This document shows positions 1 through 5,579 of a stretch of DNA of 32,000 nt, piece after piece. Source of the stretch: Candidatus Omnitrophota bacterium (lineage in GTDB: Bacteria > Omnitrophota > Gorgyraeia > Duberdicusellales > 4484-171); the NCBI GenBank assembly GCA_021735045.1, contig JAIPHU010000006.1, positions 1 to 32,000 on the forward strand, given 5' to 3'. The position numbers and the translations under genes were made by a program. Position 1 is the first letter of the stretch. Every line of letters starts with the position of its first letter. The notes beneath the pieces are model-generated. The model did not search any database, had not been told where the DNA came from, and saw only the letters and a program-made list of their open reading frames with translations.

Positions 1-63
1 TAGTGCCTCTTGCTGTTTTAATTTTATTTATATTAATAAGCCTATTATTTTTTAGATAAAAAC

Positions 64-141
64 ATCTAACAACTCATTCGAGCTGACCTTTTTGCGCCGC
101 AAAATCAGCTTCGAAAAGGCAGCTCAATTCGAATGTTATCT
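64..141 (+). repeat. attC site 1
   Basis: ATCTAAC (fits RYYYAAC) at 64-70, followed by AACTC. GTTATCT lies at 135-141, preceded by TCGAAT. The inner arms ATT[C]GAGCTG and CAGCTCAAT pair, leaving one bulged C on the + strand. Confidence 0.75.
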
Positions 142-160
142 GGAGAAAATAATTAAAAAG

Positions 161-355
161 ATGAAAATATTTATTATATTTTTCGGAACAATTCTAATAA
201 TAAATGGCACACTTATTATTAAACACAAAAAATATGGTCAGGAAGAAGGTTTGCCATTCGGCAATTGCTTCGAGGGCAAAACAGCTATTGTTATAGGTTA
301 CATATTAGCTTCTATAGGAATTCTCTTATTGATTATTGGAATATTTTACTGGTGA
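161..355 (+). CDS. Small hypothetical membrane protein (64 aa, two hydrophobic segments); cassette ORF
   Basis: This is the ORF-track frame 92..355. I trimmed the start to ATG 161 because residues encoded by 92-160 lie inside attC 1. The product MKIFIIFFGTILIINGTLII...IGILLLIIGIFYW is hydrophobic. Confidence 0.5.
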   Translation: MKIFIIFFGTILIINGTLIIKHKKYGQEEGLPFGNCFEGKTAIVIGYILASIGILLLIIGIFYW

Positions 356-426
356 TATAATTTAATTAACAATCAAAAATAAAAAAGCGATATAAAAATA
401 ATAAAATAGATATTTTTTGGAAGAAA

Positions 427-435
427 TGATATAAT
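427..435 (+). promoter_or_regulatory. Extended -10 promoter (TGATATAAT) for the MNT/HEPN pair; probably a leaderless transcript
   Basis: TG at 427-428 and TATAAT at 430-435. The ATG at 442 lies 6 nt downstream, with no room for a Shine-Dalgarno sequence. Confidence 0.45.
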
Positions 436-441
436 TTATCT

Positions 442-711
442 ATGATTAGCGAAAAAGATAAAAGAATAATCAGAAAATTATCGGAAAAATACCATGTAAG
501 AAAAGTGTTACTTTTTGGTTCTAGCTTAGACCCTGCCCAAGAAGGACGTGACATCGACTTGGCTGTAGAAGGCATTGATCCTCGGAAATTTTTTAAGTAT
601 TATGGGGATCTTATGTTCGGTTTATCCAAACCTGTTGATTTAATTGACCTATCTGATAAATCAAAATTTGTAACCCTGGTTAGAAGGGACGGTGTGCAAA
701 TATATGGCTAG
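442..711 (+). CDS. mntA: Minimal nucleotidyltransferase (MNT) antitoxin of a type VII HEPN/MNT toxin-antitoxin pair
   Basis: LFGSS...GRDIDLAV matches the GS...DxD nucleotidyltransferase motif. The protein is 89 aa and overlaps the downstream HEPN gene by 8 nt. Confidence 0.8.
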   Translation: MISEKDKRIIRKLSEKYHVRKVLLFGSSLDPAQEGRDIDLAVEGIDPRKFFKYYGDLMFGLSKPVDLIDLSDKSKFVTLVRRDGVQIYG

Positions 712-1117
712 CTATAAAGAAATGATCGAGGCCGAATATGAAGCAATTGAAAAAACAATTTCAATGTTGCCAAAAAAGCCTCTTGCTCAATTGTCCGAAT
801 TGGAGCTTGCCGGAGTATCAACACTGCTAAGCAATTTTTATAACGGCACAGAAAATATTTTAAAACAATTATTCAAAAAGTTATCTTTGGAAGTGCCTAC
901 CGGCCCGGCTTGGCACCAAAGCTTAGTTATCGGTGCAGTCCAAGAAAAAATTCTCTCTAAAGAACTCGCTGACAGGATTAAAGAATACCTTACCTTTAGA
1001 CATGTTGTAGCTCACGGATATGCTTTCAATTTAAAGCCCGAAAGACTCCAAGAACTTATAAATAATGTTTCGGAAATATTTAAAGATTTTAAAAAAGAAA
1101 TAAATAAATCCATATAA
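704..1117 (+). CDS. hepT: HEPN-domain (DUF86/HepT-like) RNase toxin
   Basis: FRHVVAHGY matches the Rx4HxY HEPN catalytic motif. The gene is paired with the upstream MNT. I chose ATG 704 over GTG 692 because the AAGGGA at 684-689 is better spaced for it. The stop codon lies inside the R'' box of attC 2. Confidence 0.75.
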   Translation: MASYKEMIEAEYEAIEKTISMLPKKPLAQLSELELAGVSTLLSNFYNGTENILKQLFKKLSLEVPTGPAWHQSLVIGAVQEKILSKELADRIKEYLTFRHVVAHGYAFNLKPERLQELINNVSEIFKDFKKEINKSI

Positions 1118-1185
1118 CAACTCACTCCACCTGACCCTCGCAGCGCGTTAACTAAAGCTCGGGCAGGTGAGTTCAAATGTTAGGT
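1112..1185 (+). repeat. attC site 2
   Basis: ATATAAC at 1112-1118 plus AACTC. GTTAGGT at 1179-1185 is an exact GTTRRRY. ACTC[C]ACCTG[A]CCC pairs with GGGCAGGTGAGT, leaving a bulged C and a bulged A on the + strand. Confidence 0.8.
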
Positions 1186-1218
1186 GTAAAGAATAATTGA
1201 GAAAGGAGGAGAAAAAAA

Positions 1219-1551
1219 ATGAAAAAGAAAGAAAGAATGAATTTAATTATAGGGTGTATAATTTTACTTTTTTTAATTGGACGCTCCGCTGTTGGTATTA
1301 CGCAGAATACTGAAAAAGTTAATATACCTCAAGAATCGAAAAATCTTTTTGTTTTTTTGAATTTATTTTTATTAATCTTTGGGTTAAGTTTTGCGATTTT
1401 TGGAAAAAAACTAGCAAATTATTTTTATAAAAATGTTGCTGGATTAAAAAATAAGTTTTCCTTAAAATATTTATCGACAGGCATGATAATGATTGGAGTA
1501 GGGTCAAGCATATTTGCAACATTGTCTTTTGTAAAACTTATTTTAAAATAA
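1219..1551 (+). CDS. Hypothetical membrane protein (110 aa, about 3 TM); cassette ORF
   Basis: A strong SD (GAAAGGAGGAG) precedes the ATG. There are hydrophobic segments and I recognise no motif. Confidence 0.55.
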   Translation: MKKKERMNLIIGCIILLFLIGRSAVGITQNTEKVNIPQESKNLFVFLNLFLLIFGLSFAIFGKKLANYFYKNVAGLKNKFSLKYLSTGMIMIGVGSSIFATLSFVKLILK

Positions 1552-1580
1552 ATAACAGTTGGATGTCTAAGGGGGGGCAA

Positions 1581-2090
1581 ATGAAAAGAGATAGGTCGAA
1601 AGGAGTAACATTTTGGGGATGGACATTTATTATTATTGGAATTTTTGGTTTATTGTTAACTATTTTATTATTTAATAAATTTATCAACTATCAAGGCGAA
1701 ATACCTAAAAAACAGATTTCTTATTTTTGGGATTTTTTAGCATTTTCTTTATCTATCGTCGGAGGAATTTATTTATTAAAACTAAAAAATTGGGCGAGGT
1801 GGATGATATTAATTCTCTGCTTTCTGGGGATAGTAGATACTATCTTAACTTCACCTATTGTATTTAATAATTCTGCAGTTGAACAAAAACAAGAAGAACT
1901 TATTAAAAAATATAAACCTGAACATCAACAAAAAGTTAGAAAACAAATGGAGTGTATGGATAAAACATTGCCTTTTGTTAACTATTTTACTATTTTTATA
2001 TTTATAATTTTGTATTTATGCCCGATTATTTTTTTCACTCGTCCTAAAGTAAAAGAACAATTTAAAAATAAAATAGATAAGATTCAATAA
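1581..2090 (+). CDS. Hypothetical membrane protein (about 169 aa, about 4 TM); second gene of the same cassette
   Basis: The ORF-track frame starts at 1563. ATG 1581 is preferred because the G-rich SD (AAGGGGGGG) precedes it. There is no attC between this gene and the previous one. Confidence 0.5.
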   Translation: MKRDRSKGVTFWGWTFIIIGIFGLLLTILLFNKFINYQGEIPKKQISYFWDFLAFSLSIVGGIYLLKLKNWARWMILILCFLGIVDTILTSPIVFNNSAVEQKQEELIKKYKPEHQQKVRKQMECMDKTLPFVNYFTIFIFIILYLCPIIFFTRPKVKEQFKNKIDKIQ

Positions 2091-2097
2091 ATTAAAC

Positions 2098-2194
2098 TCA
2101 TAACAACTCACCCCAGCGGACCCAACTTCGCCCTAGATAGAGTTGGGGGCAATTCCTACGGGCTACGTAGGGCCGCTGAGTTCGGATGTTAGGT
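2098..2194 (+). repeat. attC site 3
   Basis: TCATAAC at 2098-2104 plus AACTC. GTTAGGT at 2188-2194. ACCC[C]AGCGG[A]CCC pairs with GGGCCGCTGAGT. The central region holds two inner hairpins (CCCAACT/AGTTGGG and CCTACG/CGTAGG). Confidence 0.8.
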
Positions 2195-2221
2195 AGAAAA
2201 AGTATTAAAAAAGGAGGGCTC

Positions 2222-3205
2222 ATGAAAAATTTTAAATTTCCACTATGCTTATTGCTTGCAATGTTTTTGTTGTGTTTATCTTTTATTTCTTACAGCCAAG
2301 AAAACTATGACACTGAAAATTTTACAAAAAACATAATGGAGGCAGCAAAAGCTGGCCGTATGGGGCGACTAAACGCAAGGTTTACTTGTCCCCGTTATTT
2401 ACTAAGATATAGCATGACTTTATATAATGTAGGCAGCAGAGAAAATGCTATTGAAATAGCAACAGTTGCAAAAACAATAGCATCTCTCGTAAAAAAAGCT
2501 CTAGCTGTAAATTATATAAGTGATTTAGAAGCAAAGACATTCGCTAAAGAAATAAATGATCCAAAAATTAAATCTAAAATGATAGATTACACAACAGCTT
2601 TAAAAAATGCAGCCGCAGCACATATAAAATATTTTAAAACCGGTGACAAAGACATAATCTATACGATAGATGAATATCTTGATAAAGCTTTCCAGTATGA
2701 CAGTGATTTAGAAAAAATATTAAAAAAACCAATTATTACTAATGCCGCTCGCATAATGTTTAACGCTGTTTATTATTGTCCGCGGTGGCTGACAACTTTG
2801 GCTGAATCCTATATGGATTATGCTATTGAAGGGGAATACGCATCAAGAGGCTATAGGAAAGATTTTGTACTTTGCCCGGACTGCATAAAGCTTACTAAGT
2901 GTGCAAAAGATATAAACGACGTATGGTCAGAAAACTTAAAGAGAACTTCAGATAAAGATATAGATCCAAATTATAAAAAAGTTTGCCTAGAATATACAGA
3001 TACTTTTAAAAAGTATTCAGGTTGTCAAATGGAATTTTTGAAGCTCGGCGAAAAAATTATGAAATCGCCTTTAAAAAAAGAAATTCCTACTGAAATTACA
3101 TCAAAAGTCAATAAAGACCTCTGTCCTAATTTAAATAAAGATTACCAAAAAAAATTATTTCCGCTTATGGAAAAAATAAATAATTTTGTTTATAAAAAAG
3201 AATAA
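2222..3205 (+). CDS. Secreted Cys-rich hypothetical protein (327 aa) with an internal duplication; cassette ORF
   Basis: The start was trimmed to ATG 2222, which has the SD AAAGGAGGG; the 2186 start lies inside attC 3. There is an N-terminal signal-like segment (LCLLLAMFLLCLSFISYS). The motif NA.[FY].CPR[YW]L occurs twice. Confidence 0.6.
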   Translation: MKNFKFPLCLLLAMFLLCLSFISYSQENYDTENFTKNIMEAAKAGRMGRLNARFTCPRYLLRYSMTLYNVGSRENAIEIATVAKTIASLVKKALAVNYISDLEAKTFAKEINDPKIKSKMIDYTTALKNAAAAHIKYFKTGDKDIIYTIDEYLDKAFQYDSDLEKILKKPIITNAARIMFNAVYYCPRWLTTLAESYMDYAIEGEYASRGYRKDFVLCPDCIKLTKCAKDINDVWSENLKRTSDKDIDPNYKKVCLEYTDTFKKYSGCQMEFLKLGEKIMKSPLKKEIPTEITSKVNKDLCPNLNKDYQKKLFPLMEKINNFVYKKE

Positions 3206-3227
3206 ATAAATATTTCATATTCATTCT

Positions 3228-3318
3228 ACATAACAACTCACTCCAGCGGACCCAAAAGCGGCCCTAAATAAAATTATAGAAGAACCCGCTTTTGTGCCGC
3301 TGAGTTCGAATGTTATGG
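3228..3318 (+). repeat. attC site 4
   Basis: ACATAAC at 3228-3234 plus AACTC. GTTATGG at 3312-3318, preceded by GAGTTCGAAT. ACTC[C]AGCGG[A]C pairs with GCCGCTGAGT, and the stem continues as AAAAGCGG/CCGCTTTT. Confidence 0.8.
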
Positions 3319-3345
3319 GGAATAGACTAAAAAAATGAAAATATC

Positions 3346-3374
3346 TTGACATGTACATCTAAATAATGTACAAT
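3346..3374 (+). promoter_or_regulatory. Sigma70-type promoter of the brnTA cassette (TTGACA-17 nt-TACAAT) with a repeated ATGTACA box
   Basis: TTGACA at 3346-3351, TACAAT at 3369-3374, and a spacer of exactly 17 nt. ATGTACA occurs at 3351-3357 and again at 3366-3372, which is a possible operator. The GTG start at 3381 lies 6 nt after the -10. Confidence 0.6.
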
Positions 3375-3380
3375 TGAATT

Positions 3381-3659
3381 GTGAGATACGAGTGGAATCC
3401 CGAAAAAAACGAATGGCTTAAAGAGAAAAGAAATATTTCTTTTGAGCAAATTGTTTTCCATCTATCTCAAGGTGATGTCTGGAGAAAGTCTGATCATCCA
3501 GACAAAAAAAGATATAATAAGCAAAAAATATATTTTGTCATCGTTGAAAATTATATTTATTTAGTACCACATATTGTTGAAAAGGAATATATATTTTTAA
3601 AGACGATAATTCCCAGTAGAAAGGCAACTAAAATGTATAAAAGAGAGCAGGAGGGTTAA
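3381..3659 (+). CDS. brnT: BrnT-family (DUF497) ribonuclease toxin
   Basis: MRYEWNPEKNEWLKEKRNISFEQI is a typical DUF497/BrnT N-terminus. The protein is 92 aa and is immediately followed by a BrnA-like gene. Confidence 0.8.
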   Translation: MRYEWNPEKNEWLKEKRNISFEQIVFHLSQGDVWRKSDHPDKKRYNKQKIYFVIVENYIYLVPHIVEKEYIFLKTIIPSRKATKMYKREQEG

Positions 3660-3661
3660 TT

Positions 3662-3970
3662 ATGAAATACGAAAAGGAAGAAAAATACATATTGAATGCT
3701 TTAGAAGACGGAAAAATAAAGCTTTCTAAACCATCAAAAGAAGAGATAGAATCAATTAAAACAGCCGCTAATAATACTTTTAAAAAAAACCGTCGGATTA
3801 CAATTAGACTTTACAACCATGATTTTATAGGAATCCAAAAAAAAGCAGTTGAAATGGGCATACCTTACCAGACACTGATTTCAGGCATAATCCATAGGTA
3901 TATTGAAGGCGATATAAAAATAAAGCCCCATAACAACTCACCCCAGCGGACCCAACTTCGCCCTAGATAG
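3662..3970 (+). CDS. brnA: BrnA-family antitoxin (CopG/RHH-like)
   Basis: RITIRL...KKAVEMGIPYQTLISGIIHRYIEG matches the BrnA consensus. The SD AGGAGGG is present. The last ~14 codons (from 3928) are encoded by attC 5. Confidence 0.8.
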   Translation: MKYEKEEKYILNALEDGKIKLSKPSKEEIESIKTAANNTFKKNRRITIRLYNHDFIGIQKKAVEMGIPYQTLISGIIHRYIEGDIKIKPHNNSPQRTQLRPR

Positions 3971-3984
3971 AGTTGGGGGCAATT
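3928..3984 (+). repeat. attC site 5, truncated (R''/L'' half only)
   Basis: Positions 3929-3984 are identical base for base to 2099-2154 of attC 3. The sequence then diverges, and no L'/R' (GAGTT..GTTRRRY) half follows. Confidence 0.75.
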
Positions 3985-4217
3985 AGAGTTTTCTGAAAAA
4001 ATTTTCTAATATCTATGTGAGCTCACAGAGCCTGCTTTGCAAGGAAGCGACCCTTTGCAGTTTCGAGAACAAAACACTTAATTATTGAAAGTGTTCCCAC
4101 CAAAAGTAAATATAGTCTTACCGCTAACATCTGGAAAAAGAGAAAATTAATGCGATTAAAAGTGCTTGAGCTCCGCTGTATTTCTGTTAAAATCCTTCTT
4201 AGCTATCTTTTGATTGT

Positions 4218-4289
4218 GCCAAGGTAGCTCAGGGGAAGAGCAGGGCATTCGTAATGCTCAGGCCGAGAGTTCGAATCTCTCCCTTGGCT
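4218..4289 (+). tRNA. tRNA-Thr (anticodon CGU), no encoded CCA
   Basis: The cloverleaf folds by hand. Acceptor stem GCCAAGG/CCTTGGC. D stem GCTC/GAGC. Anticodon stem GGGCA/TGCTC with loop TTCGTAA. A 5-nt variable loop. T arm GAGAG-TTCGAAT-CTCTC. Confidence 0.9.
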
Positions 4290-4304
4290 TATTTATAGAT
4301 AATT

Positions 4305-5579
4305 ATGATAATTCCTTATTTTAAAATCCTCGCGAAAAGAAATTTTACTTTACTCTGGTCTGGCCAAATAACCTCCCAGTTTGGCGACAAGCTGACTCAA
4401 CTTGCCTTAGTCTCGTTGGTAGGATTTTTCTTTAAAGATTCATCTAGCTTAGGATTAGCCGTTATCTTTAGCATGACCATCATTCCGGTGATTCTATTTT
4501 CTCCGGTAACCGGCGTTTATGTGGATCGCTGGGACAAAAGAAAAACGATGTATCTCTGTGACTTTTTTCGCGGAGTATTAATCATCCTCATCCCAATTTT
4601 ATTTTTAAAAGCTGTCTACTTTCCTTTAATTTGTTTGATAGTTTTTATTTCTGCTACTTTGGGACGATTCTTTATCCCCGCTAAAATGGCATTTATCCCT
4701 CAGATAACTGAAAAAAAAGATATTTTTATCGCAAATACTTTAGTTTCAGTAACTGCAACTACCGCGGCTATCTTTGGGATTGGACTAGGTGGGATTATTG
4801 TCGATAGCTTAGGCCTTAAGGCTACCTTTTACATTGATGCGATAACTTTTTTTGCTTCGGCAATATTTATTTTCTTTATTGCTAAAACTGAAAAAAAACA
4901 CTTTTCTCCCAATGATATTGTAGGCATCAGTCGAGAGGTAGTGGAAAATATAAAAAAGTCATTCGTAAAGGAATTGACCGAAGGGATCAAATACATCCTT
5001 GCCACAAAAGAAACCAAATATGCTTTTAGAACTTTTTTGTTTTTATTTTCTTACTTAGGGGGGATTTCTACAGTTTATATTCGTTTTATTCAAAATACAA
5101 TCGGCACCTCTTCTCAAGAAGTAAAAGAAGTTGCCTTTATCGGTATATTTTTGGGAGCAGGAATATTTATTGGTTCCCTAATTTACGGAAGATTTGCTCA
5201 TAAAATATCAATAAAAAAAGTGATCGACCTATCTTCATTGACTGCTTCTTTTTTTCTCCTATTTTTTGTGCTCTGGATTAAACATAATCCTTATATTTTA
5301 CACGCGATGGCTCTTTCTTTCTTTTGGGGAATTTCGCTTTCACCGATTTTTATTGGCGTAAATAGTTTGATTCACAACACAACAAAGGAAGCTCTGTTAG
5401 GTAGAATTTTCAGCAGCTTGGAATTTATCGCTCACCTCGGTTTTTTAATCACAATGTTTATAGCTTCCTTTTTATCAGACTTACTGAACCCCTTTACAAT
5501 AATAACTTCAATTGGTATAATTGGTTCCATTTTTTCAGTGATTTTTTTAATAAAAGATGCTAAAAGTCAAAGAATTTAA
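4305..5579 (+). CDS. MFS transporter (about 12 TM)
   Basis: The protein is 424 aa and hydrophobic throughout. The N-terminus NFTLLWSGQITSQFGDKLTQLAL and the motif DRWDKRK after TM2 are MFS-like. The 3' end overlaps rnfC by 23 nt. Confidence 0.75.
   Translation: MIIPYFKILAKRNFTLLWSGQITSQFGDKLTQLALVSLVGFFFKDSSSLGLAVIFSMTIIPVILFSPVTGVYVDRWDKRKTMYLCDFFRGVLIILIPILFLKAVYFPLICLIVFISATLGRFFIPAKMAFIPQITEKKDIFIANTLVSVTATTAAIFGIGLGGIIVDSLGLKATFYIDAITFFASAIFIFFIAKTEKKHFSPNDIVGISREVVENIKKSFVKELTEGIKYILATKETKYAFRTFLFLFSYLGGISTVYIRFIQNTIGTSSQEVKEVAFIGIFLGAGIFIGSLIYGRFAHKISIKKVIDLSSLTASFFLLFFVLWIKHNPYILHAMALSFFWGISLSPIFIGVNSLIHNTTKEALLGRIFSSLEFIAHLGFLITMFIASFLSDLLNPFTIITSIGIIGSIFSVIFLIKDAKSQRI

What the first reader, a model, noticed from the sequence alone, without database searches (positions are those of the whole stretch)
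1..3984. Integron gene-cassette array with textbook attC geometry and no integrase in view
Five GC-rich imperfect palindromes lie at 64-141, 1112-1185, 2098-2194, 3228-3318 and 3928-3984. Each sits directly 3' of a gene or gene pair, all are in one orientation, and they are about 1.0-1.1 kb apart.

Each begins with an RYYYAAC-like box plus AACTC. Each complete one ends with a GAGTT/CAATT + CGAAT/CAAAT/CGGAT spacer and a GTTRRRY-like box (GTTAGGT twice).

The inner arms pair and leave an unpaired C on the + strand in all four complete sites, plus an unpaired A in sites 2-4. These correspond to G and T on the bottom strand. That matches the extrahelical-base pattern that defines recombinogenic attC bottom-strand hairpins in the established model.

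The central parts vary in sequence and length; the four complete sites are 74-97 nt.

The cargo also fits: two TA pairs with their own promoters, and otherwise small unknown membrane or secreted ORFs.

Either intI/attI lies left of position 1 (a sedentary chromosomal integron), or this is an integrase-less attC cluster (CALIN).
Basis: partly seen in the sequence, partly recalled or inferred. Interest (0 to 1): 0.8.

Follow-up and report, generated by a model that had tools for sequence, protein, structure and literature searches.

The report
Integron gene-cassette array, integrase found off-window
The first 4 kb of the window is the far end of an ordinary chromosomal integron (a bacterial gene-capture array) in an uncultured Omnitrophota bacterium; its integrase gene lies on a neighbouring contig of the same genome assembly, so this is a new example of a well-known system.

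Summary
Four complete repeats (64-141, 1112-1185, 2098-2194, 3228-3318) and one truncated repeat (3928-3984) occur only here in 32 kb. All are on the + strand, each just 3' of a gene or gene pair.

They meet the published attC geometry:
- R''/R' boxes.
- Unpaired spacers of 5 and 6 nt.
- Bottom-strand extrahelical G16 and T23 separated by a 6-bp stem.
- A variable centre, with total lengths of 74-97 nt.

A covariance model built only from class 1/3 resistance-cassette attC sites finds exactly these four sites (E 2e-8 to 4e-6) and nothing else. The reciprocal model finds known attC sites and, in integrase-anchored metagenome loci, only the cassette side.

The window comes from an Omnitrophota MAG. 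That MAG encodes a bona fide integron integrase (TIGR02249, 400 bits) on another contig. In a sibling MAG, the integrase contig runs intI-attI-cassettes and ends in 14 nt identical to window bases 1-14, with the ORF continuing in frame.

So this is most likely one small sedentary chromosomal integron of about six cassettes, split by a contig break. It ends at a degenerate attC next to tRNA-Thr. It is a new member of a known kind, of modest interest.

The parts
1..59 (+). 3' end of a cassette ORF encoding a small membrane protein (C-terminus ...VLILFILISLLFFR, stop TAA at 57-59). It appears to continue the 99-aa partial ORF at the end of sibling-MAG contig L206.
   Evidence: The last 14 nt of L206 equal window 1-14, and the frame is kept. 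The composite protein is not in the protein collection, so the join is inferred.
64..141 (+). attC site 1 (78 nt): R'' ATCTAAC, R' GTTATCT. The inferred crossover is between G135 and T136.
   Evidence: R1 83.0 bits. R2, the class 1/3-trained model, 43.4 bits, E 1.6e-8.
136..1179 (+). Cassette carrying three genes: a small membrane ORF (164-355), an MntA-like nucleotidyltransferase antitoxin (442-711) and a HepT-like toxin (704-1117). A promoter-like site lies at 407-435. No attC separates the small ORF from the TA pair, so this may be two fused cassettes.
   Evidence: Pfam PF18765 34.3 bits (cutoff 26.9) and PF20797 75.4 bits (cutoff 27). NCBIfam MntA and HepT matches are sub-threshold. Promoter scan 10/12 with TG. 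In L100 a site-1-type attC lies directly before the homologous MNT promoter.
1112..1185 (+). attC site 2 (74 nt): R' GTTAGGT. The inferred crossover is between G1179 and T1180.
   Evidence: R1 77.0 bits. R2 41.3 bits, E 5.5e-8. The bottom-strand fold shows a bulged T and G.
1180..2188 (+). Cassette with two small predicted membrane ORFs (1219-1551; 1581-2090, alternative start 1563). Function unknown.
   Evidence: ORF list. No Pfam family above cutoff. 1219-1551 equals NCBI MCF7873657.1, K9M00_02375.
2098..2194 (+). attC site 3 (97 nt): R' GTTAGGT. The inferred crossover is between G2188 and T2189.
   Evidence: R1 70.5 bits. R2 35.8 bits, E 1.2e-6.
2189..3312 (+). Cassette with one 327-aa ORF (2222-3205) that has a signal-peptide-like N-terminus. 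Function unknown.
   Evidence: ORF list. No Pfam hit. Equals MCF7873659.1.
3228..3318 (+). attC site 4 (91 nt): R' GTTATGG. The inferred crossover is between G3312 and T3313.
   Evidence: R1 83.8 bits. R2 33.8 bits, E 3.9e-6. Bottom-strand DNA fold z = -6.3.
3313..3984 (+). Last cassette: promoter-like site 3346-3374, BrnT-like toxin 3381-3659, BrnA/CopG-like antitoxin 3662-3970.
   Evidence: Promoter TTGACA-17-TACAAT, 11/12. PF04365 BrnT 25.7 bits is below the cutoff of 34.5. NCBI names it a BrnT family toxin. Homologous pairs occur in other arrays: L110, L018, L100, L093.
3928..3984 (+). Truncated attC site 5. It keeps R'', L'' and part of the centre, is identical to site 3 over 56 nt, and lacks L' and R'. 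It presumably cannot fold or recombine, so the last cassette is fixed in place.
   Evidence: Alignment. blastn 3929-3984 = 2099-2154. No R1 or R2 hit. The junction is reproduced in Logan contig L121.
3985..4158 (.). Unassigned 174-nt spacer between the array end and the tRNA promoter.
   Evidence: No Rfam match above chance. No homology to any fetched locus.
4159..4289 (+). Right-hand chromosomal boundary: tRNA-Thr(CGT) gene (4218-4289) with its promoter-like region (4166-4193).
   Evidence: ARAGORN. Rfam RF00005 64.8 bits. Promoter scan. 83% identical to L014 2171-2278, where only the first 48 nt of the tRNA remain, next to intI.

Best explanation
Bases 1-3984 are the distal part of a small sedentary chromosomal integron in an uncultured Omnitrophota bacterium.

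Each unit is a gene cassette: one to three genes followed by an attC site. [quoted passage not shown] In that hairpin R'' pairs with R' and L'' pairs with L'. A 5/6-nt internal loop and two flipped-out bases (G16, T23) mark the strand and register for the integron integrase.

IntI would cut between the C and the AA of the bottom-strand AAC, which is G|TT on the top strand. That would excise cassettes as circles (attC x attC) and re-insert them at attI next to intI.

The integrase and attI lie just left of position 1, across a contig break. Two cassettes are toxin-antitoxin pairs with their own promoters, which in known chromosomal integrons stabilise the array.

The last attC has lost its 3' half. 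The terminal BrnT/BrnA cassette is therefore frozen in place, and the array ends 174 nt before the tRNA-Thr promoter.

Shown here: attC sequence and structure membership, cassette organisation, an IntI gene in the same MAG, and cassette turnover at attI among close relatives.

Inferred: physical contiguity with intI, present-day recombination activity, and the stabilising role of the TA pairs.
For: Structure:
- R box TAAC(A)/(T)GTTA.
- Spacers of 5 and 6 nt.
- L stem of 3 bp, bulge, 6 bp, bulge, then at least 3 bp.
- The bulges sit at top-strand positions 16 (C) and 23 (A), which are bottom-strand G16 and T23. This matches the published rule (Nivina 2016, PMC5027507).
- 93.7% of cells pair and five pairs show compensatory changes.

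Membership, tested both ways:
- Model R1 (window sites plus 9 relatives) finds class 1/3 attC sites exactly at the 3' ends of aadA1, catB3, blaGES-6, cmlA6, blaVIM-1 and aacA4. It has no off-target hit in 47 kb.
- Model R2 (those class 1/3 sites only) finds the four window sites and nothing else in 32 kb.

Link to IntI:
- In 40 loci fetched by IntI homology alone, all 10 R1 hits lie upstream of intI on the opposite strand.
- L014, an Omnitrophota MAG, carries intI (TIGR02249, 400.5 bits) + attI + a cassette + a site-4-type attC.

Same genome:
- IntI P0002/MCF7873590.1 is in the same accession block as the window proteins MCF7873657-60.
- The 14-nt overlap and the in-frame ORF link the sibling contig L206 to the window.

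Cassette turnover:
- L014, L206 and L207 share intI+attI at 91-96% nucleotide identity.
- The homology stops inside the GTTAG core, and different first cassettes follow.
- MNT/HepT and BrnT/BrnA cassettes recur in other arrays in different orders.

TA cassettes with their own promoters are typical of chromosomal integrons (PMC13108822).
Against: - No integrase or attI lies within the 32 kb, and the window's own upstream sequence could not be fetched.
- Contiguity rests on a 14-nt end overlap with a sibling MAG's contig. The composite 113-aa protein is not on record.
- IntegronFinder's own attC model was not available.
- R2 was aligned with the help of R1. Its parameters come from class 1/3 sites, but its column assignment is not fully independent.
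- Folding energies of sites 1-3 are barely better than shuffles.
- Nothing here shows recombination activity.
- The BrnT assignment is below Pfam's cutoff.
Confidence: 0.88

Rival explanations
1. A true CALIN: an attC cluster detached from any integrase, left by rearrangement or integrase loss. Its cassettes could be mobilised only in trans by the IntI encoded elsewhere in the genome.
For: No intI lies in the 32-kb window. In the window's own MAG, intI is on a different contig. The composite junction-spanning protein is not on record. CALINs are common, and half occur in genomes that encode IntI (PMC4889954).
Against: The sibling MAG's intI contig runs out of sequence inside a cassette ORF whose last 14 nt equal the window's first 14 nt. 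The frame continues to a stop 4 nt before attC 1. Chance identity of two contig ends over 14 nt is about 4e-9. Cury et al. state explicitly that draft assemblies split single integrons into an integron plus CALINs.
Confidence: 0.1
2. Non-integron intergenic palindromes, such as REP/BIME-like elements, MITEs or shared Rho-independent terminators, that merely resemble attC sites.
For: They are GC-rich imperfect palindromes placed after genes in an AT-rich genome. Folding z-scores for three of the four are modest.
Against: - They occur only within the 4-kb array and in one orientation.
- No terminator-like T-tract was found at them.
- They are detected by a model trained only on resistance-cassette attC sites.
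- The same repeat type sits on the cassette side of IntI genes in independent loci.
- The bulged bases are conserved at positions 16 and 23 while the stems covary.
Confidence: 0.02

Closest known systems
Sedentary chromosomal integrons (for example the Vibrio cholerae superintegron, Xanthomonas and Treponema denticola integrons)
   Same: A chromosomal location between housekeeping genes. An array of same-orientation cassettes with related attC sites. Mostly unknown small membrane or secreted ORFs. Promoter-bearing toxin-antitoxin cassettes. A divergent intI/attI layout in the relatives L014 and L206.
   Different: It is very small, about six cassettes and about 5 kb, against tens to hundreds. 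The attC sites fall into at least three sequence subtypes rather than one homogeneous repeat. The host phylum (Omnitrophota) is uncultured. The last attC is truncated.
attC sites of class 1 mobile-integron cassettes (attC of aadA1, catB3, cmlA6)
   Same: Nearly the same register: xxxTAAC-AAxTC-NNN-C-NNNNNN-A-... on the left and ...-TCRRRY-GTTRRRY on the right. They have the same G16/T23 extrahelical bases, 5/6-nt spacers and a 6-bp inter-bulge stem. The models cross-detect each other.
   Different: The centres are longer (74-97 nt against 60-72) and the context is AT-rich. The cargo is not antibiotic resistance, and the sites are not on a transposon or plasmid.
CALIN (clusters of attC sites lacking an integron-integrase; Cury et al. 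2016)
   Same: Within the window there are at least two attC sites less than 4 kb apart on one strand, with no intI.
   Different: The genome encodes IntI at a contig end that points into an array, and that end overlaps the window's start. The CALIN call is most likely an artefact of assembly.

Membership tests
Integron attC recombination site | Inverse-core R'' (RYYYAAC) at the 5' end and core R' (GTTRRRY) at the 3' end of the top strand, with the AAC/GTT triplets conserved | tested here: met
   TAAC and GTTA are invariant in all 13 aligned sites, and R-box pairs hold in 96.9% of cells. Site 1 fits RYYYAAC fully; sites 2-5 have 1-2 departures in the degenerate positions. The R' boxes are GTTATCT, GTTAGGT (twice) and GTTATGG.
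Integron attC recombination site | Extrahelical bases on the bottom strand: G at position 16 and T at position 23/24, separated by a 6-bp stem (Nivina 2016, PMC5027507) | tested here: met
   Alignment columns 16 (C) and 23 (A) of the top strand are unpaired in all four window sites. Six pairs (columns 17-22 with 77-82) lie between them. The bulged T and G are visible in the bottom-strand folds of sites 2-4.
Integron attC recombination site | An unpaired central spacer of about 5-6 nt per arm, a variable terminal structure, and a total length of 57-141 bp | tested here: met
   Spacers are AACTC (5) and TCRRAT (6). The centres are unrelated in sequence. Lengths are 78, 74, 97 and 91 nt.
Integron attC recombination site | Detected by an attC covariance model | tested here: met
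   IntegronFinder's own model was not available. The surrogate R2, built only from seven class 1/3 attC sites, gives 33.8-43.4 bits (E 1.6e-8 to 3.9e-6), full length, at the four sites and nowhere else in 32 kb.
Integron attC recombination site | Recombined as a folded bottom strand by an integron integrase | not testable with these tools
   This needs an in vivo or in vitro recombination assay.
Complete integron (intI + attI + at least one attC) | An integron integrase (tyrosine recombinase with the IntI-specific region) in the genome | tested here: met
   P0002 (MCF7873590.1, same MAG accession block as the window proteins) scores 400.3 bits on TIGR02249 against a cutoff of 265, covering profile positions 1-315 of 315.
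Complete integron (intI + attI + at least one attC) | intI and attI physically adjacent to this array (within 4 kb of the first attC) | tested here: inconclusive
   They are not in the window. Sibling-MAG contig L206 carries intI, attI and two cassettes, and it ends in 14 nt identical to window 1-14 with the frame kept. No sequence spanning the junction was found.
Complete integron (intI + attI + at least one attC) | An attI site at which cassettes are inserted | tested here: met
   Tested in relatives only. L014, L206 and L207 share 91-96% identity from intI up to a GTTAG core and diverge immediately after it into different first cassettes.
CALIN | [quoted passage not shown] | tested here: inconclusive
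   This is met operationally inside the window. The window starts at or near a contig end, inside a cassette ORF that matches the end of an intI contig.
REP/MITE-type dispersed repeats | Many copies dispersed in both orientations, independent of an integrase | tested here: not met
   Five copies lie in one 4-kb cluster on one strand, and none in the other 28 kb. The whole genome was not available.
Type VII MntA/HepT toxin-antitoxin pair | An adjacent minimal nucleotidyltransferase and a HEPN (HepT) RNase | tested here: met
   PF18765 34.3 bits (cutoff 26.9) for 442-711 and PF20797 75.4 bits (cutoff 27) for 704-1117; the genes overlap. The NCBIfam equivalogs are below cutoff.
BrnT/BrnA toxin-antitoxin pair | A BrnT RNase toxin followed by a CopG/RHH-type BrnA antitoxin | tested here: inconclusive
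   PF04365 scores 25.7 bits against a cutoff of 34.5. The antitoxin has no family hit. The L206 homologue has a weak CopG_antitoxin hit. NCBI names the toxin a BrnT family toxin.

The most novel reading that the evidence does not exclude
In this Omnitrophota lineage the whole integron (intI + attI + array) may behave as a relocatable island tied to tRNA-Thr, not as a fixed chromosomal fixture.

- The 1.45-kb platform is 91-96% identical in three different flanking contexts: MATE + a 48-nt tRNA-Thr 5' fragment in L014, MATE alone in L206, and TonB/glycosidase genes in L207.
- In L014 the intI stop lies 27 nt from a tRNA-Thr promoter plus the first 48 nt of the tRNA.
- In the window the other end of the array abuts the same promoter plus an intact tRNA-Thr.

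If both ends occur in one genome, the integron would be bracketed by direct repeats of more than 100 bp of tRNA-Thr 5' sequence. That is the signature of integration into a tRNA gene.
Probability: 0.1. Interest if true: 0.6.

Novelty: new member of a known kind. Interest (0 to 1): 0.27.

Why it matters
It adds a well-documented chromosomal integron from an uncultured phylum, Omnitrophota. It shows that attC geometry down to the G16/T23 bulges and the 5/6-nt spacer is conserved between clinical class 1 cassettes and a deeply divergent lineage.

It is also a worked example of how a contig break turns a complete integron into an apparent CALIN. The cassettes themselves are a small pool of uncharacterised genes: small membrane or secreted proteins and two TA pairs. 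Nothing here changes the understanding of integrons.

Tried and rejected
- Fetching the window's own upstream sequence failed. Look-ups with window proteins returned only short Logan contigs (L001, L120, L121). The long source contig was counted but never shown.
It returned 118 stretches from many phyla (Pyrinomonadaceae, Xanthomonadales, Omnitrophota, Thermoplasmatota and others) but not the window's contig. It did supply the key relatives L014, L100 and L110.
- My first regular expression for right ends was too strict, matching 5 of 134, and was abandoned in favour of covariance models.
- None of the 80 IntI-anchored metagenome loci shares DNA with window 1-4320.
- Exact and homology look-ups for a protein spanning the L206/window junction found nothing.
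- MAFFT could not align long class 1 attC sites (CARB-2, arr-3, GES-6) at both ends (A3, A4). R2 was therefore built from the R1-guided alignment A5.
- I asked whether the truncated last attC marks array ends in general. It does not: in L110 a truncated attC is internal, and that array ends at a different degenerate attC next to a gene that by eye looks like D-aminoacyl-tRNA deacylase.
- I asked whether IntI recombination at a GTT in the tRNA T-arm made the L014 breakpoint. The break lies 5 nt upstream of the GTT, so this is not supported.
- Rfam gives nothing credible in the 174-nt spacer.

Full report
**1. The observation**

TAACAACTCA occurs exactly five times in 32 kb, at 67, 1115, 2101, 3231 and 3931, always on the + strand. 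The right-end motif GAGTTCRRATGTTA, or CAATTC... in site 1, occurs at the four complete copies only.

Each repeat begins 4-25 nt after a stop codon or overlaps one. The repeats have GC 0.42-0.56 in a region of GC about 0.28-0.34.

Site 5 (3928-3984) is identical to site 3 over 56 nt (3929-3984 = 2099-2154) and then breaks off, so it lacks the 3' arm. That junction is also present, base for base, in a Logan contig assembled from a different run (L121). It is therefore not a one-off misassembly.

**2. Structure**

The 7-nt R'' box counts as positions 1-7. Aligned that way, the four window sites and nine relatives (A2) share one architecture:
- TAAC(A) pairs with (T)GTTA.
- AACTC (5 nt) and TCRRAT (6 nt) stay unpaired.
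- Three pairs follow, then an unpaired C at position 16, six pairs, an unpaired A at position 23, and at least three more pairs.
- The centre is unrelated in sequence. Total lengths are 74-97 nt.

On the bottom strand the two unpaired bases are G16 and T23. This is the published definition: G at position 16, a conserved T at 23/24, a mandatory 6-bp stem between them, a spacer of 5-6 nt, and a length of 57-141 bp (Nivina et al. 2016, PMC5027507).

Pair counting gives 93.7% standard pairs, against 23-41% with the partner slid by 1-3 columns. Five pairs carry compensatory changes, and 0 of 500 shuffles reach the observed covariation.

Single-sequence folding is a weak witness: z is -1.1 to -2.7 for sites 1-3 and -6.3 for site 4. 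In site 1 the palindromic TTCGAA also offers an alternative pairing.

**3. Are they attC sites?**

IntegronFinder's model was not available, so I tested membership in both directions with my own covariance models.

R1 was built from A2. I ran it with filters off on the window plus four plasmid integrons fetched by IntI homology and annotated by others: L122, L123 and L125 carry annotated IntI1, and L124 carries a different, unclassified integron integrase.
- It returned the four window sites at 70-84 bits.
- It returned seven further hits, each on the cassette strand at the 3' end of aadA1, catB3, blaGES-6, cmlA6, blaVIM-1 or aacA4 (found twice).
- There were no off-target hits at E <= 1.

I then located those attC sites independently from the annotation and aligned the seven matches to the model (A5). 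From them alone I built R2.
- R2 finds 64-141, 1112-1185, 2098-2194 and 3228-3318 full length, at 33.8-43.4 bits (E 1.6e-8 to 3.9e-6).
- It finds nothing else in the window.

One caveat applies. The column assignment of A5 was guided by R1, although the parameters of R2 come only from the class 1/3 sequences.

**4. Association with integron integrases elsewhere**

A scan of GTDB genomes with the left-arm motif returned over a hundred stretches from many phyla. Nearly all show the full R''...R' layout by eye.

One of them, L014, is from an Omnitrophota MAG with GC 0.34. It is a complete integron containing:
- An ORF matching TIGR02249 'integron integrase' at 400.5 bits (cutoff 265, full profile).
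- A divergent attI region ending in GTTAGAT.
- A first cassette.
- A site-4-type attC.
- A promoter-bearing AbrB-type antitoxin cassette.

Separately, I fetched 80 metagenome loci by homology to that IntI alone and searched 40 of them with R1. All 10 hits lie upstream of intI on the opposite strand, the canonical geometry.

**5. The integrase of this genome**

Exact look-ups show that the window's proteins are NCBI MCF7873657.1, MCF7873659.1 and MCF7873660.1. Their locus tags are K9M00_02375 and K9M00_02385, from 'Candidatus Omnitrophica bacterium', on a 60,262-bp contig.

The closest relative of the L014 integrase, P0002 (89% identity), has accession MCF7873590.1. That number is 67 below the window's proteins and so in the same MAG, on a 71,887-bp contig. 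A second accession, MCF7894255.1, belongs to a sibling MAG with locus tags K9L84. P0002 scores 400.3 bits on TIGR02249.

The sibling's contig (L206), read on its - strand, carries these features in order:
- ...MreB, PBP2, RodA ... spermidine synthase, MATE.
- intI on the opposite strand.
- attI (GTTAGCT).
- A BrnT-like/CopG TA cassette with its own promoter.
- A 55-nt attC, detected by R2 at 41.4 bits.
- A second cassette ORF that runs off the contig end.

The last 14 nt of that contig, TAGTGCCTCTTGCT, are the first 14 nt of the window. The ORF continues in frame through a hydrophobic stretch to TAA at 57-59, 4 nt before attC 1.

Chance identity of two sequence ends over 14 nt is about 4e-9. 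No record spans the join, so I rate contiguity as likely (about 0.7), not proven.

On this reading the integron is about 6.5 kb: intI, attI and six cassettes, lying between a MATE transporter gene and tRNA-Thr(CGT). The window alone would be scored as a CALIN. Cury et al. 2016 warn of exactly this effect in draft assemblies (PMC4889954).

**6. Evidence that the system has been active in this lineage**

L014, L206 and L207 share intI+attI at 91-96% nucleotide identity. The homology ends inside the GTTAG core, and each locus has a different first cassette. L014's second cassette recurs in L207.

MNT/HepT and BrnT/BrnA cassettes homologous to the window's (45-76% amino-acid identity) occur in other AT-rich arrays (L100, L093, L110, L018) in different orders and next to different attC subtypes.

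In L100 a site-1-type attC lies directly before the MNT promoter. The window has an extra small ORF (164-355) there with no attC, so the cassette at 136-1179 may be two fused cassettes.

**7. Cargo and likely function**
- 442-711 and 704-1117 form a MntA/HepT-type pair: PF18765 at 34.3 bits and PF20797 at 75.4 bits, both above cutoff.
- 3381-3659 and 3662-3970 form a BrnT/BrnA-like pair. It is sub-threshold on Pfam, and NCBI names the toxin BrnT.
- Both pairs are preceded by the two best promoter-like matches in the region. These are consensus matches only.
- Promoter-bearing TA cassettes are a recognised feature of chromosomal integrons and stabilise arrays (Richard et al. 2024, PMC13108822).
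- The other ORFs are small predicted membrane or secreted proteins with no family assignment.

Site 5 lacks L' and R', so it cannot form the hairpin. By inference, the terminal TA cassette can no longer be excised. Internally deleted attC sites also occur in known integrons; an example is the aadA1 attC in L123, reduced to GTCTAAC|TCAAGCGTTAGAT.

GC skew is positive over most of the window, and nearly all genes are on the + strand. That suggests the attC bottom strands lie on the leading-strand template, the usual orientation in sedentary integrons (25 of 30; Loot et al. 2017, PMC5371416). This is a weak inference from 32 kb.

**8. What remains odd**

In L014 the 144 nt between MATE and the intI stop contain the tRNA-Thr promoter and the first 48 nt of tRNA-Thr. 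They are 83% identical to window 4159-4265, and ARAGORN finds no tRNA there. L206 has an unrelated 62 nt at that position. In the window the intact tRNA-Thr sits at the opposite end of the integron.

The nearly identical platform also appears in an unrelated context, next to TonB and glycosidase genes in L207-L210. There intI carries a deletion of about 185 nt.

These facts could mean local rearrangements. Less likely, the integron has moved as a unit with tRNA-Thr as a target. I could not test this because the distal end of L014's array and the window's proximal end were out of reach.

**9. Verdict**

Both the observation and the interpretation are supported. This is an integron cassette array with textbook attC sites, almost certainly the distal part of a complete, small chromosomal integron of an Omnitrophota bacterium. 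It is a new member of a known kind, and its interest is modest.

Noticed in passing
L014 2171-2278 (- strand), compared with window 4159-4265: In the related Omnitrophota integron L014, the intI stop codon lies 27 nt from a tRNA-Thr promoter plus only the first 48 nt of tRNA-Thr. The break falls just before the T-arm, and ARAGORN finds no tRNA. In the window the intact tRNA-Thr flanks the other end of the array. The sibling L206 has an unrelated 62 nt instead of the fragment.
   Followed up: partly
L207 3902-5160, L208 325-1583, L014 680-2134, L206 1005-2464: The intI+attI platform is 91-96% identical in three different genomic contexts (MATE/tRNA fragment, MATE alone, TonB/glycosidase genes). 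In L207-L210 intI carries an internal deletion of about 185 nt, so it is probably inactive.
   Followed up: partly
window 136-441, especially 364-374: The first full cassette holds a small membrane ORF (164-355) upstream of the MNT/HepT pair, with no attC between them. In L100 an attC lies directly before the homologous MNT promoter. AATTAACAATC at 364-374 might be a remnant of an R'' box from a lost attC.
   Followed up: partly
window 4267-4276 compared with 3302-3311: The right arm and spacer of attC site 4 (GAGTTCGAAT) are identical to the T-arm/T-loop 10-mer of the adjacent tRNA-Thr. This is probably coincidence, since GTTCGAAT is the near-universal T-loop motif.
   Followed up: no
L110 5100-5420 (- strand): Downstream of an internal truncated attC in this related array there is a tandem duplication of a non-coding unit of about 180 nt, followed by another TA cassette. 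The array ends at a degenerate attC (R' GTATTAT) next to a housekeeping gene.
   Followed up: no
L010, L015, L078 (Thermoplasmatota MAG contigs): Archaeal MAG contigs carry repeats with the same left-arm motif and a matching GTTAGA-type right end. This is in line with reported archaeal integrons (PMC9668308, which I listed but did not read).
   Followed up: no
L123 3364-3510 (- strand): In this class 1 integron the aadA1 attC is reduced to GTCTAAC|TCAAGCGTTAGAT, with both hairpin arms deleted. It is a known-integron parallel to the damaged site 5.
   Followed up: no
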